From an uncultured Gammaproteobacteria bacterium (GTDB taxonomy: Bacteria > Patescibacteriota > Patescibacteriia > Magasanikbacterales > UBA922): a stretch of DNA of 64,000 bases. The DNA is taken from NCBI GenBank assembly GCA_964433095.1, contig CAYSPW010000003.1, positions 7,034-71,033 on the forward strand. Reading direction: 5' to 3'. The position numbers were made by a program, and so were the translations under genes. The notes under the pieces are model-generated. The model was not told where the DNA came from. It made no database searches and saw only the letters and a list, made by a program, of their open reading frames with translations. Positions 1,494-4,301 of the stretch are shown one piece after another; position 1 is the stretch's first letter; every line of letters begins with the position of its first letter.

Positions 1494-4301
1494 ATGAGAG
1501 AATACAAACCTCGCGAGATTGAGAAAAAATGGCAGCACTATTGGGAAGAAAACCAAATTTTTAAAACTCCTACTGAAGCAGAAATTGACAACAAAATGTA
1601 CATACTGCCCCAACTGCCTTACCCATCCGGTTCCGGACTCCATGTCGGCCACGCCGAAGTATACACGGCCTGTGATATTTACGCTCGTTACCAGAGAATG
1701 ATCGGCAAGGATGTACTACAGGTAATCGGCTGGGATTCTTTCGGATTGCCGGCGGAAAACTACGCAATCAAAACAAATATACATCCGCGCGTTAGTACCG
1801 AGCAGGCGATTGATACTTTTAGAGAACAAATTAAGTTATTGGGTGTTTCGGTGGACTGGGACCGGGAAGTAAGCGCTCATCATCCTTCCTTCTATAAATG
1901 GACTCAATGGTTTTTTTTGTTGTTTTACAAGCGTGGGCTGGCTTACAGAAAAAAACAGTCGGTCAATTGGTGCGACGGCTGTAAAACCGTCTTGGCCAAT
2001 GAACAAGTGGTGGATGGACGCTGTGAACGTTGCGAAGCGGTCATCCGGCAAAGAGATATGGAGCAATGGTTTTTGAAAATTACCGCTTATGCCGATCGCT
2101 TGATTGATGATTTGGACAAAGTGGATTGGCCGGCAGAAACAATAAAAAGACAAAAAGATTGGATTGGGCGTTCGCCGGGTGCGTTGGTGAATTTTTACAT
2201 CAATGGAGATCCGGTGGAAGTCTTTAGCACCAGACCGGATACATTGTTCGGCGCCACTTATTTGATTTTGGCACCCGAACATGAATCGGTTCGCTTATTG
2301 AAGGATAAAATAGAAAATTGGAAACAGGTGTCAGAATATATAGAGCGGGCGCGATTAAAAAGCGATTTGGACCGCCAAACCGAAAAAGAAAAGACCGGAG
2401 TGGAATTGCGTGGCATTAAGGCTGATAATCCGGTCAATAACGAAAAAATACCGGTGTATATAGCGGATTATGTTTTATCCGGCTATGGAACCGGCGCCAT
2501 CATGGCCGTTCCCGCTCATGATGAAAGAGATTATGAATTTGCAAAAAAATACGATCTGCCCATAAAGCAGGTGGTGGCCGAGCAGGTTGGCGAAAAAAAA
2601 GAGCAAGGACAGTGTCGGCCCGGTTCTTATGCGGTAATGGAAAAAGATGAAAAGATTTTGGTAATCTATGATAAAAAAACAGATTTTTATCGGCTGCCGG
2701 GCGGCGGATTTGAAGAAGGTGATGATGCCGAGCAGGCTCTGAGAAGAGAGATAGCTGAAGAAACCGGCTATGTTAATTATCATGTGGGAGAGCATTTTAC
2801 CAAACTGGAGAGTTGCGGCTATTCTGATAATAACAAAGCTTACTTGCATAGATTGTTGCATGTTTATCATGTCAAATTGGAAAATGACCAAAGAGATCAA
2901 TCTCTATTGGAAGATGCACAGCGTTGGAGGCTAGAATGGATGACCTATGAACAGGTGGTAGAAGTCTTTGGTAAAGAAACAAGGGAGCTGGAGTTGATTG
3001 CTTTGGTATTGGATAAGATGACGCCATGCTATAGCGGTGAAGGAGTTTGCGTTGATTCCGGCTTTTTAGCCGGACTGCACACCGATGAAGCCAAAGAAAA
3101 AATGGTACGGTGGTTGGAAGAAAATAACTTTGGAAAAAGTCACGTTCAATACAAGCTGCGCGACTGGTCCGTTTCCAGACAGCGCTTTTGGGGAGCGCCC
3201 ATTCCCATGCTCTATGATCAAGAAGGCGAACTTCATCCGGTGCCGGAGGAAGATTTACCCGTGCTTTTACCAACGGATGTTGATTTCAAGCCTACGGGTG
3301 AATCGCCTTTAAACTGTTCGCAAGAATTTCAACAAGGGGTGGAAGAAAAGTACGGCCAAGGTTGGAGCCGGGAACCGGATACTTTGGATACTTTTATGTG
3401 TTCCAGCTGGTATTATTATCGCTATCTTGACCCACATAACGATAAATGTTTCGCCTCGCCCGAGAGCATAAAAACATGGATGCCGGTTGATTTTTATCTG
3501 GGCGGTTCGGAGCATGTTACGGGGCATTTACTCTATTCGCGATTTTTCACCAAAGTACTCTATGATTCCGGATATATTGATTTTGACGAGCCTTTTTTGA
3601 AACATCGCCATCAAGGATTGATTTTGGGAGAAGATAACAGAAAGATGAGCAAGCGCTGGGGCAACGTGATCAATCCGAGTGATGTCGTGAAAGAATTCGG
3701 AGCAGACACTACCAGAATGTACGAAATGTTCATGGGTCCTTTGGAAGACGATAAGCCTTGGGACATGAACGGTGTTAAAGGAGTGAGAAGATTTTTGGAT
3801 AAAGTTTGGAGATTGCAGTCAAAAGTGGCGAATCAATCAAGCGCTAATGATAAGGTATTACACAAAACCATCAAAAAAGTTACCACCGACATTGAGGATA
3901 TGCGTTTCAATACCGCCATTGCGTCCATGATGGAGCTGGTTAATTTCTGGCAGAAGAAGGAACAATTATCTAAGAATGATTTTTCTTTGTTTGTAAAAAT
4001 TCTTTCTCCTTTCGCGCCTCACATATGTGCGGAAATTTGGCAGATTTTGGGCCATGATGAGCAGCCGGCGTTTCAAAGTTGGCCAGCATATGACGCGGAA
4101 TTGATAAAAGAAGACACCATTACTTTGGTGGTACAGATAAACGGCAAAGTGAGGTCAAATCTGTCAGTACCGGCCGACATCGGGGAAGATGAAGCCAGGC
4201 GAGTGGCGCTTGCCGATGAAAAAACGCGCCAATGGCTTGCGGATAAAGAACCGAAAAAAATTATTTACGTAAAAGACAAATTAATCAATATCGTGACGTA
4301 A
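1494..4301 (+). CDS. leuS: Leucyl-tRNA synthetase with an inserted Nudix-like domain
   Basis: Class I HIGH-type motif [8 protein letters not shown], KMSKR (KMSKS); CP1 editing-domain blocks [11 protein letters not shown] and [36 protein letters not shown]. About 120 extra residues between the editing domain and the RDW block carry a Nudix box. Confidence 0.9.
   Translation: [935 protein letters not shown]

What the first reader, a model, noticed from the sequence alone, without database searches (positions are those of the whole stretch)
2581..3060. Nudix-like domain inserted inside leucyl-tRNA synthetase
About 120 extra residues lie between the end of the LeuRS CP1 editing domain ([30 protein letters not shown]) and the conserved [21 protein letters not shown] block. 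They carry a near-canonical Nudix box, [26 protein letters not shown] (GX5[E/D]X7REUXEEXGU). Nudix enzymes hydrolyse nucleoside diphosphate-X compounds such as Ap4A, NADH, ADP-ribose and 8-oxo-dGTP. Class I/II aaRSs are themselves a major source of Ap4A, so a Nudix module embedded in an aaRS could couple aminoacylation to Ap4A/alarmone turnover, or act on the tRNA 3-prime end or a cap. I am not aware of such a fusion being described.
Basis: partly seen in the sequence, partly recalled or inferred. Interest (0 to 1): 0.65.

Follow-up and report, generated by a model that had tools for sequence, protein, structure and literature searches.

The report
Swappable Nudix cassette inside leucyl-tRNA synthetase
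The leucyl-tRNA synthetase of an uncultured CPR (Magasanikbacteria-like) bacterium carries a complete Nudix nucleotide-hydrolase domain, with its catalytic motif intact, inside its proofreading domain; relatives show this spot is a slot where different enzyme modules are repeatedly swapped, an arrangement I could not find described and whose purpose is unknown.

Summary
ORF 1494..4301 (+) is a bona fide bacterial LeuRS (TIGR00396, 946 bits). Residues ~364-515 (nt 2583..3038) form an extra domain that passes Pfam NUDIX (52 bits, cutoff 21.1). It folds confidently (pLDDT 90.5) and matches 561 solved Nudix structures. It replaces a 6-residue surface loop inside the CP1 editing domain (T. thermophilus 368-373). 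Across 54 embedded homologues the catalytic REx2EE helix is essentially invariant while the rest is only ~26-40% identical.

The fusion is not unique. About 40% of the nearest 120 LeuRS proteins and at least 40 of 80 GTDB loci carry it (Magasanik-, Moran-, Kaiserbacteria and others). The same loop elsewhere holds a SAM-methyltransferase, a HAD, an ANT(2'')-like nucleotidyltransferase or unassigned domains. Two other sites hold an alpha/beta-hydrolase or further Nudix copies. Nudix and LeuRS-core histories are incongruent, so cassettes are exchanged.

Most likely it is an active, RppH/NudH-like pyrophosphohydrolase tethered to the editing domain. The substrate (Ap4A-type by-products, RNA 5' ends or something else) is unresolved. 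I found no publication describing it. I rate it a new variant of known kinds, interest ~0.68.

The parts
1494..4301 (+). Leucyl-tRNA synthetase gene (935 aa), host of the insert
   Evidence: NCBIfam TIGR00396 leuS_bact 945.7 bits, cutoff 548.4. Pfam tRNA-synt_1, tRNA-synt_1_2 and Anticodon_1. E 5e-216 to T. thermophilus LeuRS 1H3N. HIGH (HVGH) at nt 1641..1652 and KMSKS (KMSKR) at nt 3642..3656.
2154..2603 (+). CP1 editing domain, part before the insert (aa 221-370), with the T-rich motif TRPDT (nt 2229..2243), GTG (nt 2487..2504) and AHDERD (nt 2514..2531)
   Evidence: Pfam PF13603 183.6 bits, profile positions 1-149 of 185. Editing-site residues are invariant in 39 relatives with and without the insert. 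Motif positions.
2583..3038 (+). Inserted cassette (aa 364-515): linker + Nudix domain + C-terminal helices. This is 'site 1'.
   Evidence: Absent from plain relatives and from T. thermophilus and E. coli LeuRS, where Tt 368-373 is a short loop. The AF2 model of aa 358-527 has pLDDT 90.5 and pTM 0.84.
2634..2969 (+). Pfam NUDIX match (aa 381-492)
   Evidence: PF00293 52.0 bits, cutoff 21.1. Foldseek gives 561 PDB Nudix chains at E<=1e-3; the top hit is 2AZW with TM 0.80.
2703..2771 (+). Nudix box G404-Y426 ([23 protein letters not shown])
   Evidence: In 54 embedded homologues: G404 54/54, position 410 E 50/54 (D here), R418 53/54, E419, E422 and E423 each 54/54, G425 53/54, Y/F426 53/54.
3039..3158 (+). 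CP1 editing domain, part after the insert (aa 516-555: [14 protein letters not shown]...KSHVQYKL)
   Evidence: Aligns to T. thermophilus LeuRS 374-417. G517 and S522 are nearly invariant.
3159..3194 (+). [12 protein letters not shown] block. This is the return to the catalytic core and the 3' anchor used to measure site 1.
3225..3230 (+). 'Site 2' (between aa 578 and 579, [18 protein letters not shown]). It is empty in this protein. Relatives hold a ~180-aa serine alpha/beta-hydrolase here.
   Evidence: Pairwise alignments to P0003, P0055, P0069 and P0116. Pfam Ser_hydrolase/Abhydrolase in those proteins.
2202..2207 (+). 'Site 3' (between aa 237 and 238, [11 protein letters not shown]). It is empty in this protein. 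P0025 holds an alpha/beta-hydrolase exactly here. In P0149, P0158 and P0222, extra Nudix domains lie in the same general region, between the N-terminal Rossmann half and the start of the editing-domain match.

Best explanation
The segment encodes a complete Nudix pyrophosphohydrolase module with an intact catalytic motif. It is carried as a discrete ~145-residue cassette in a surface loop of the CP1 proofreading domain of an otherwise intact LeuRS. LeuRS keeps its synthetic and editing sites. The Nudix domain folds independently on two short linkers and acts as a tethered hydrolase of a nucleoside-diphosphate-X compound.

Shown: domain identity, predicted fold, insertion point, conservation of the catalytic helix, wide occurrence in CPR LeuRS, and cassette-like exchange.

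Inferred: (a) It is catalytically active (about 0.75). (b) Its attachment to LeuRS is functional rather than accidental (about 0.6). (c) Its substrate belongs to the RppH/NudH repertoire, meaning dinucleoside polyphosphates such as Ap4A, which synthetases make from aminoacyl-adenylate plus ATP, or 5'-triphosphate/Np4-capped RNA ends. On this reading the enzyme removes adenylate-derived by-products, or processes an RNA end, next to where the tRNA acceptor end is handled (about 0.3-0.35).
For: Domain and fold: Pfam NUDIX 52 bits against a cutoff of 21.1. AF2 pLDDT 90.5. 561 PDB Nudix matches, top TM 0.80. The profile against PDB sequences gives 2AZW at 9e-15, followed by Ap4A hydrolases, RppH, Dcp2 and ADPRase.

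The host is functional: TIGR00396 at 946 bits, HIGH/KMSKS and the editing residues are intact.

Selection on catalysis: G404, E419, E422 and E423 are 54/54, and R418 and G425 are 53/54, while the rest of the domain is ~26-40% identical.

Link to LeuRS: every long protein among the best 150 of 1.84 billion representatives that I domain-checked is a LeuRS. Some carry 2-3 Nudix domains at two different positions. The fusion is present in at least 40 of 80 GTDB loci from several CPR lineages.

Substrate lean: 28 of 31 inserts match an RppH model and 25 of 31 match YtkD/BsRppH, more than match MutT (16-17 of 31). R375 (R/K in 50 of 54) and an aromatic residue 17 positions after the box (43 of 54) are conserved.

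Free-standing relatives of the same type lie beside aaRS genes: P0279 is directly upstream of a ThrRS-like gene, P0278 is two genes from a class II aaRS with another nearby, and P0129 is four genes from one.
Against: No curated Nudix subfamily is met: RppH models score 19-24 bits against cutoffs of 116-259, and MutT scores 25 against 98. The substrate class is therefore a lean and not an assignment.

Close relatives (83-85% core identity) have a plain LeuRS, so the module is dispensable.

The same loop holds a methyltransferase, a HAD, an ANT(2'')-like NTase or unknown domains in other lineages. These cannot hydrolyse Ap4A, so the logic of the slot is broader than Ap4A clearance.

This protein has Asp, not Glu, at box position 410. 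Its two nearest relatives have 1-2-residue indels in the GX5E spacing. A few lineages have lost the box Arg (L007, L042, L049).

The neighbourhood signal rests on 3 of 5 informative contexts, two of them related (rough binomial p ~0.04 by my own estimate).

LeuRS is not among the strongest Ap4A producers (my recollection of the 1980s enzymology, not checked here).
Confidence: 0.45

Rival explanations
1. Housekeeping hitch-hiker. The CP1 loop and two other loops of CPR LeuRS tolerate insertions. Generic 'house-cleaning' enzymes (Nudix, HAD, esterase, methyltransferase) have been captured there because an essential, constitutively expressed gene is a safe place in a tiny genome. The Nudix is active, but its chemistry has nothing to do with leucylation or tRNA.
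For: The cargos belong to unrelated enzyme families. All combinations of occupied and empty sites occur, and sites 1 and 2 are only weakly associated (odds ratio 2.4, p 0.047). Plain LeuRS occurs in close relatives. The LeuRS catalytic and editing motifs are the same with or without cargo. The same window has another nested enzyme domain, a parvulin PPIase inside SecD, which suggests domain nesting is a general habit of this lineage. The composition of the insert is unremarkable: GC 42.4% against 44.5% in the core.
Against: Within the best 150 hits of an exhaustive search, this Nudix type was embedded only in LeuRS. Nudix was attached repeatedly, at two positions and in up to three copies. Free-standing relatives tend to lie near aaRS genes. 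Frequent cassette exchange is not expected for a passively retained housekeeping fusion.
Confidence: 0.25
2. Conflict or immunity module. The slots tether fast-turning-over detoxifying or repair enzymes to the enzyme (or tRNA end) that is under attack. The attackers would be aminoacyl-adenylate-mimicking antibiotics or toxins that modify the tRNA acceptor end. The Nudix would cleave a nucleotide-linked inhibitor or adduct.
For: Step-function mosaicism: LeuRS core 85-100% identical, but Nudix 27-36% and hydrolase 18-33% in the same pair. There are at least 8 Nudix subtypes, each spread over cores of 42-91% identity. Nearest neighbours by core and by Nudix coincide in only 15 of 73 cases, and there are 1420 strongly incongruent triples. 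About 37 state changes occur in 143 sequences. The cargo list (ANT(2'')-like NTase, SAM-MTase, HAD, serine esterase, Nudix) resembles small-molecule-modifying resistance enzymes. NCBIfam already recognises an IleRS with a GNAT domain (NF040702, listed). From my own knowledge, GNATs detoxify aminoacyl-nucleotide antibiotics.
Against: There is no specific hit to defence-system models, only a generic Nudix match to PDC-S07 at 32.8 bits. No Nudix is known to me to cleave adenylate-mimic antibiotics. No toxin, immunity or mobile-element genes were seen next to leuS. Exchange is seen at genus-level divergence, not between near-identical strains. The idea is entirely inferential.
Confidence: 0.2
3. 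Non-catalytic Nudix fold, used as a structural, tRNA-binding or regulatory (nucleotide-sensing) appendage of CP1.
For: Some lineages have replaced the box Arg (AE in L007; ME in L042 and L049) or the box Gly (L077). This protein has D410, and its relatives have indels in the first half of the box. Non-catalytic Nudix domains exist, for example CFIm25 (title and abstract of PMC2425470).
Against: The three metal-binding and catalytic Glu residues are 54/54 and the Arg is 53/54, across subtypes that otherwise share ~26% identity. This is the pattern expected for retained catalysis.
Confidence: 0.06
4. Artefact: an assembly chimera, a frameshift-joined neighbouring Nudix gene, or an intein-like element removed from the mature protein.
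For: The sources are metagenome-assembled genomes. The insert sits in a conserved essential gene with a patchy distribution, as inteins do.
Against: The reading frame is uninterrupted. The same architecture occurs in dozens of independent assemblies and samples. There is no Hint/intein Pfam match. Junction residues are not conserved Cys/Ser/Thr...His-Asn. AF2 models it as a domain continuous with CP1.
Confidence: 0.01

Closest known systems
Free-standing Nudix (di)nucleoside-polyphosphate / RNA 5'-pyrophosphohydrolases (E. coli RppH/NudH, B. subtilis YtkD/BsRppH, Bdellovibrio BdRppH 3EES, Aquifex Ap4A hydrolase 3I7U)
   Same: Same fold and the same REUXEE catalytic helix. These are the curated models most consistently matched by the inserts (28/31 and 25/31) and are among the top structural hits.
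   Different: Scores are far below every curated cutoff, so the insert is not a member. The domain is not a separate protein; it is nested in an aaRS editing domain. Its substrate is unknown.
E. faecalis 'MutT/nudix family protein' 2AZW (structural-genomics protein of unknown substrate)
   Same: Best match by sequence profile (E 8.9e-15) and by structure (E 3.5e-11, TM 0.80).
   Different: 21% identity. No known function, so it does not help to assign a substrate.
Ordinary bacterial LeuRS (T. thermophilus 1H3N/2BYT, E. coli 4AQ7/4ARC)
   Same: Collinear over the catalytic core, ZN1, CP1, the anticodon-binding domain and the C-terminal domain. Residues 1-367 align position for position with T. 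thermophilus LeuRS.
   Different: 142 extra residues in place of the Tt 368-373 loop. There is no leucine-specific domain: Tt ~580-636 is replaced by about four residues, as in Mycoplasma mobile LeuRS (PMC3643597).
aaRS carrying an extra small-molecule enzyme domain: IleRS with a GNAT domain (NCBIfam NF040702 'ileS_w_GNAT')
   Same: A class Ia synthetase fused to an accessory enzyme domain that is unrelated to aminoacylation (the model is listed).
   Different: Different synthetase and cargo, and the position was not examined here. I do not know of any report of alternative cargos or cassette exchange for it.
Inteins / homing elements in conserved sites of essential genes (analogy only)
   Same: In-frame insertion at a conserved site of an essential gene. 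Patchy distribution among close relatives. A history incongruent with that of the host gene.
   Different: No Hint/splicing or endonuclease domain. The cargo is a metabolic enzyme whose catalytic residues are under selection, and it presumably stays in the mature protein.

Membership tests
Nudix hydrolase superfamily (Pfam PF00293) | Profile HMM match above the curated gathering score | tested here: met
   52.0 bits in the full protein and 56.3 bits in the excised segment, against a cutoff of 21.1.
Nudix hydrolase superfamily (Pfam PF00293) | Nudix box GX5EX7REUXEEXGU | tested here: met
   G404-X5-D410-X7-R418-E419-I-A-E422-E423-T-G425-Y426. The only departure is the conservative Asp for Glu at position 410 (E in 50 of 54 homologues).
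Nudix hydrolase superfamily (Pfam PF00293) | Alpha/beta/alpha sandwich fold with the box on a loop-helix-loop | tested here: met
   AF2 pLDDT 90.5 and pTM 0.84, with the box helix at model residues 55-67. 561 PDB Nudix chains at E<=1e-3. This is a prediction, not an experimental structure.
Nudix hydrolase superfamily (Pfam PF00293) | Divalent-cation-dependent hydrolysis of a nucleoside diphosphate linked to X | not testable with these tools
   Requires an enzyme assay.
Bacterial leucyl-tRNA synthetase (NCBIfam TIGR00396 equivalog) | Equivalog HMM above the curated cutoff | tested here: met
   945.7 bits against 548.4, in two stretches split by the insert.
Bacterial leucyl-tRNA synthetase (NCBIfam TIGR00396 equivalog) | Class I HIGH and KMSKS signatures; CP1 editing site (T-rich motif, conserved Asp) | tested here: met
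   HVGH aa 50-53, KMSKR aa 717-721, TRPDT aa 246-250, AHDERD aa 341-346. These residues are invariant in 39 relatives.
RppH / NudH RNA pyrophosphohydrolase (NCBIfam PRK00714 equivalogs; YtkD TIGR02705) | Equivalog HMM above the curated cutoff | tested here: not met
   19-24 bits against cutoffs of 116-259, and YtkD 22 against 154. These are the most frequently matched models (28/31 and 25/31), but this is a resemblance only.
MutT 8-oxo-dGTP diphosphatase (TIGR00586 / PRK10776) | Equivalog HMM above the curated cutoff | tested here: not met
   24.9 bits against 97.9, and 24.5 against 148. The match covers only the Nudix box region.
Nudix-type Ap4A hydrolases | Conserved Tyr about 16-18 residues after the Nudix box (a rule recalled from the literature, not verified here) | tested here: inconclusive
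   Y443 lies 17 residues after Y426. That column is Y in 26 and F in 17 of 54 sequences. An aromatic is preferred but Tyr is not conserved, and the rule itself comes from memory.
Inteins (Hint domain) | Hint/intein splicing blocks and conserved junction nucleophiles | tested here: not met
   No Hint/intein Pfam hit at E<=1. The junctions are variable in the alignments.
Known anti-phage defence proteins (PADLOC-DB) | Match to a defence-system protein model | tested here: inconclusive
   Only a generic Nudix-region match to the candidate family PDC-S07 (32.8 bits). Hits for the other cargos are weak.

The most novel reading that the evidence does not exclude
Three loops around the CP1 editing domain of CPR LeuRS form a cassette platform. 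Interchangeable enzymes (several Nudix subtypes, ANT(2'')-like nucleotidyltransferase, SAM-methyltransferase, HAD phosphatase, serine esterase, unknown domains) are recombined in and out of it. This holds them next to the tRNA acceptor end and the adenylate site. On this reading the platform is a target-tethered counter-measure system against aaRS-directed antibiotics or tRNA-end-modifying toxins, or alternatively an expandable proofreading toolkit. That would be a new organisational principle for an aminoacyl-tRNA synthetase.
Probability: 0.18. Interest if true: 0.9.

Novelty: new variant of a known kind. Interest (0 to 1): 0.68.

Why it matters
Aminoacyl-tRNA synthetases are among the most conserved enzymes known. 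In bacteria their accessory domains are few and well catalogued. Here, a proofreading domain of an essential synthetase hosts a complete second enzyme whose catalytic residues are under strong selection. The same loop accepts at least four other recognisable enzyme families, and modules are exchanged between backbones.

If the Nudix acts on adenylate-derived products (Ap4A, Np4 caps) or on RNA ends, this would be a hard-wired link between aminoacylation and alarmone or RNA-end metabolism, and it can be tested directly with one recombinant protein. If the slots are a conflict or proofreading toolkit, that would change how aaRS evolution in the CPR (a large fraction of bacterial diversity) is viewed.

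There are practical consequences too. The loop equivalent to T. thermophilus LeuRS 368-373 is a naturally validated site for inserting whole domains into LeuRS. Current annotation pipelines also misname some of these proteins, for example as 'alpha/beta fold hydrolase'.

Tried and rejected
1. The word-indexed homology search with the insert alone returned nothing, although the identical full-length protein is in that database. This is a limit of the tool, not evidence of uniqueness. The profile version found only 7 short proteins.

2. The search for related loci with the insert alignment failed because no conserved 7-10-column stretch exists. I used the full-length alignment instead.

3. The exact-sequence contig look-up for the window protein found no record.

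4. The first NJ tree was contaminated by hydrolase inserts in my 'core' slice. I redid it on columns with at least 95% occupancy.

5. Synonymous-site test for replacement versus fast evolution. Four-fold-site identity in the core is ~0.6, so dS is already ~0.5. At that divergence a neutrally drifting segment could approach ~30% amino-acid identity, so this test alone is not decisive. Cargo nucleotide identity (0.43-0.58) is somewhat below my rough neutral expectation (~0.6). The decisive evidence is the topological incongruence.

6. Rosetta-stone check: there is no free-standing Nudix within 1.5 kb of plain leuS genes.

7. Composition: the insert GC is not anomalous, so there is no sign of recent foreign origin in this genome.

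8. Defence-model scan: nothing specific.

9. Inter-domain geometry could not be evaluated, because predicted coordinates are not exposed to the scripting environment.

10. Rejected readings: the leucine-specific domain or another ordinary LeuRS insertion, an intein and an assembly artefact.

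
Full report
**1. The observation**

It meets the NCBIfam equivalog for bacterial LeuRS: TIGR00396 at 945.7 bits against a cutoff of 548.4, matched in two stretches that break at residue ~369. It also has Pfam tRNA-synt_1, the LeuRS editing domain PF13603 (aa 221-370, profile positions 1-149 of 185) and Anticodon_1.

Within it, Pfam NUDIX (PF00293) matches aa 381-492 at 52.0 bits. The excised 170-aa segment scores 56.3 bits, E 4.5e-15. 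The gathering cutoff is 21.1.

The Nudix box is G404-Y426 (nt 2703..2771), [23 protein letters not shown]. It is canonical except for Asp in place of the first Glu.

**2. Where exactly it sits**

Against T. thermophilus LeuRS (1H3N/2BYT), window residues 1-367 align to Tt 1-367 and residues 510-712 align to Tt 374-579. About 142 residues therefore replace the six-residue Tt 368-373 loop. Against the shortest plain relative, the extra block is aa 364-515, which is nt 2583..3038.

The CP1 editing domain continues after the insert (aa 516-555, equivalent to Tt 374-417). So the Nudix is nested inside CP1, ~20 residues after the editing-site Asp (AHDERD, aa 341-346). It is not between CP1 and the core.

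The insert does not correspond to the leucine-specific domain. That domain (Tt ~580-636) is in fact absent from this protein, as in Mycoplasma mobile LeuRS (PMC3643597).

HIGH, KMSKS, the ZN1 cysteines, the T-rich motif and the editing Asp are all present. They are invariant in 39 relatives with or without the insert.

**3. Fold**

An AlphaFold2 model of aa 358-527, built with 31 homologous inserts, has pLDDT 90.5 and pTM 0.84. The box lies on a helix flanked by beta-strands. Foldseek finds 561 PDB chains at E<=1e-3, and every listed hit is a Nudix enzyme. The best is E. faecalis 2AZW (TM 0.80), followed by a putative CTP pyrophosphohydrolase, Aquifex Ap4A hydrolase, BdRppH, MutT1, Ndx1 and RppH.

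The full-length model (pLDDT 83.2, pTM 0.73) also folds the region as a separate domain, with pLDDT 81-92.

**4. Is catalysis retained?**

I aligned 54 LeuRS-embedded Nudix domains. Conservation in the box is: G404 54/54; position 410 E in 50/54; R418 53/54; E419, E422 and E423 each 54/54; G425 53/54; Y/F426 53/54. W482 is also invariant and R375 is R/K in 50/54. Most other columns are free to vary. Mean pairwise identity of the domains is ~26-40%. This is the signature of selection on the catalytic helix.

There are caveats. The window protein has D410. Its two closest relatives have 1-2-residue indels in the GX5E spacing. A few lineages have lost the box Arg or Gly (L007, L042, L049, L077).

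**5. How widespread, and in what company**

The organism is a Candidatus Magasanikbacteria-like member of the Patescibacteria/CPR. The best named relative is 72% identical, and the window protein itself is in NCBI without a name.

Of the 120 closest LeuRS proteins, 48 carry the Nudix at this site. In a scan of GTDB species genomes, at least 40 of the best 80 loci do. These are labelled Magasanik-, Moran-, Kaiser- and Nomurabacteria and 'Parcubacteria/Paceibacterota'.

The same loop ('site 1') holds other cargos elsewhere:
- a SAM-methyltransferase (P0045, P0069, P0089) and a HAD phosphatase (P0116);
- an aminoglycoside-2''-adenylyltransferase-like nucleotidyltransferase, PF10706 at 35 bits against a cutoff of 21 (L015, L021);
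- at least three kinds of domain with no Pfam match.

A second site lies after aa 578/579, at the position of the T. thermophilus ZN2 hairpin. It holds a ~180-aa serine alpha/beta-hydrolase in many relatives. A third site, after aa 237, holds that hydrolase in P0025. Occupancy of sites 1 and 2 is only weakly associated: odds ratio 2.4, p 0.047.

An exhaustive phmmer search of 1.84 billion representatives with the insert gave 1539 hits at E<=1e-3 but only 13 at E<=1e-10. The best were LeuRS-embedded at 29-41% identity. Every long hit I domain-checked is a LeuRS. P0149 and P0158 carry Nudix between the Rossmann half and the start of CP1, and P0222 has three Nudix stretches.

**6. Evolutionary behaviour**

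I used a LeuRS core alignment (584 well-occupied columns, 143 non-redundant sequences). The site-1 state changes ~37 times under parsimony, against 59 when states are shuffled. Nudix identity is uncorrelated with core identity: Spearman -0.01 over 2628 pairs. At 70-80% core identity the Nudix domains are 29% identical.

The inserts fall into at least 8 subtypes. Each subtype is spread over cores that are 42-91% identical. There are 62 pairs with cores >=75% identical and Nudix <30% identical. Conversely, L049 and P0119 have 53% core identity but 72% Nudix identity.

Forty-residue window profiles are step functions. For P0013 against P0003 the core is 85-100% identical, the Nudix 27-36%, the alpha/beta-hydrolase 18-33%, and the core then returns to 92-97%. 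The DNA shows the same pattern.

The nearest neighbour by core and by Nudix coincide in 15 of 73 cases. For example, P0075's nearest core is P0066 (86% core, 23% Nudix), but its nearest Nudix is in P0093 (64% Nudix, 71% core). There are 1420 strongly incongruent triples. Rate acceleration alone cannot produce this incongruence, so cassettes have been exchanged among LeuRS backbones, or different Nudix genes have been captured repeatedly at the same site.

Plain and Nudix-bearing LeuRS occur at 83-85% core identity in at least six independent pairs. In the window genome itself the insert is compositionally ordinary. Its nearest relative by both measures is P0002: core 75%, Nudix 51%.

**7. What it probably does**

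No curated Nudix subfamily is met. The most consistent weak matches are RppH models (28 of 31 inserts) and YtkD/BsRppH (25 of 31), ahead of MutT (16-17 of 31).

Free-standing 160-161-aa relatives of the same type exist, and they keep the linker-like N-terminus. P0279 lies immediately upstream of, and co-oriented with, a ThrRS-like gene. P0278 lies next to a second Nudix gene and a class II aaRS, with another aaRS three genes on. P0129 is four genes from a class II aaRS. P0123 and P0277 are not near any aaRS. That is suggestive, at roughly p~0.04 by my own binomial estimate with non-independent cases, but it is thin.

My best reading has three layers:
- It is an active Nudix pyrophosphohydrolase tethered to CP1 (~0.75 for activity).
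- The attachment to LeuRS is functional (~0.6).
- The most likely substrate is in the RppH/NudH repertoire, meaning Ap4A-type dinucleoside polyphosphates made from aminoacyl-adenylate plus ATP, or ppp/Np4-capped RNA 5' ends (~0.3-0.35).

That synthetases make Ap4A and can cap RNA, and that RppH/NudH enzymes hydrolyse these products, comes from my own knowledge of the field and not from a tool result here.

The alternatives are a functionally unlinked housekeeping hitch-hiker (0.25), a conflict/immunity or expandable-proofreading cassette system (0.2), a non-catalytic appendage (0.06) and an artefact (0.01).

**8. Novelty**

Seven full-text searches found no description of a Nudix (or other enzyme) nested in LeuRS, nor of CPR aaRS insertions of this kind. 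They combined LeuRS/aaRS with Nudix, CPR/Patescibacteria/Parcubacteria, insertion, fusion and domain architecture. The one candidate paper did not mention it.

The sequences are public and carry precomputed Pfam NUDIX labels, so the architecture is visible in databases. As far as I can tell it is uninterpreted. Some members are misnamed 'alpha/beta fold hydrolase'. Both components are known kinds. The nesting site, the multi-cargo slot and the cassette exchange are what is new, so I class it as a new variant of a known kind.

**9. Verdict**

Interest is 0.68. A specialist would be surprised by an enzymatically intact Nudix inside CP1, and more so by the interchangeable cargos. The functional question can be tested directly with one recombinant protein.

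Noticed in passing
window 30056..32086 (+): SecD (676 aa) has a PPIC/parvulin-type peptidyl-prolyl isomerase domain (aa 246-357; Rotamase_3 at 110 bits) nested between the SecD_1st segment (aa 91-151) and the P1 head (aa 393-488). This is a second case in this window of an enzyme domain nested inside a housekeeping protein.
   Followed up: no
window 3627..3656 (LeuRS aa ~712-721): This LeuRS lacks the leucine-specific domain. T. thermophilus residues ~580-636 have no counterpart, and only about four residues (EDNR) precede KMSKR. This resembles the GKDG tetrapeptide of Mycoplasma mobile LeuRS (PMC3643597).
   Followed up: partly
relatives P0003, P0055, P0069, P0116 and others; the empty site in the window is at nt 3225..3230: Many related LeuRS proteins carry a ~180-aa serine alpha/beta-hydrolase (PF06821/PF00561) inserted after [10 protein letters not shown], at the position of the T. 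thermophilus ZN2 hairpin. In near-identical LeuRS backbones this domain is as divergent as the Nudix (18-33% identity).
   Followed up: partly
L015, L021, L071 (site 1 of Moranbacteria-like and other CPR LeuRS): The site-1 cargo is an aminoglycoside-2''-adenylyltransferase-like nucleotidyltransferase (PF10706, 35 and 32 bits against a cutoff of 21 in L015 and L021; L071 assigned by motif only). At least three further cargo types (L014/P0071/P0073; L022/L029/L055/P0106; P0067/P0110) have no Pfam match.
   Followed up: partly
P0149, P0158, P0222: These LeuRS proteins carry two or three Nudix domains. Copies lie between the N-terminal Rossmann half and the start of the editing domain, in addition to site 1.
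   Followed up: partly
L087-L089 (protein P0277, 247 aa; 7 contigs): A free-standing gene encodes a decayed C-terminal piece of the LeuRS editing domain ('FIPAHNNTDYKFAIKNGKELKQVVAP') followed by a Nudix domain. It is conserved between a Zn-dependent phospholipase C gene and Lactamase_B/acyltransferase genes. It looks like a cassette with its flanks, living as an independent gene.
   Followed up: partly
L083 (P0278), L084 (P0279), L091 (P0129): Free-standing 160-161-aa relatives of the embedded Nudix lie close to aminoacyl-tRNA synthetase genes. These are a ThrRS-like gene directly downstream, class II tRNA-synt_2 genes, and a HisRS-like tRNA-synt_2b gene.
   Followed up: partly
window 48449..50272 (+): The alanyl-tRNA synthetase is only 607 aa (catalytic domain + tRNA_SAD). 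It apparently lacks the usual C-terminal C-Ala region.
   Followed up: no
window 11834..13474 (-): An Elp3-like protein with radical-SAM, Radical_SAM_C and a GNAT tail (546 aa), next to serine hydroxymethyltransferase (10521..11768).
   Followed up: no
window 4305..5867 and 5879..6817 (+): ComEC-like competence protein split into two adjacent ORFs. The first holds DUF4131 + Competence (Pfam). The second has a metallo-beta-lactamase-like HxHxDH motif, judged by eye and not run through Pfam. It lies directly downstream of leuS. A DUF4131/Competence gene also follows leuS in relative L082.
   Followed up: no
window 1..64000: No tRNA gene (ARAGORN) and no Rfam family at gathering threshold in 64 kb. 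GC is 41.9%. The LeuRS Nudix box is the only REx2EExG[U] motif in any frame.
   Followed up: yes
window 42019..43806 (+): A VirD4/TrwB-type coupling-protein-like ATPase (TrwB_AAD_bind, TraG-D_C), followed by a 790-aa TPR-repeat protein (43883..46255).
   Followed up: no
L017 nt ~1669: A separate 165-aa ORF with a canonical Nudix box lies within the 5' part of the tblastn LeuRS match in a locus labelled as Saccharibacteria. It may be a further insertion position or a frameshifted gene.
   Followed up: no
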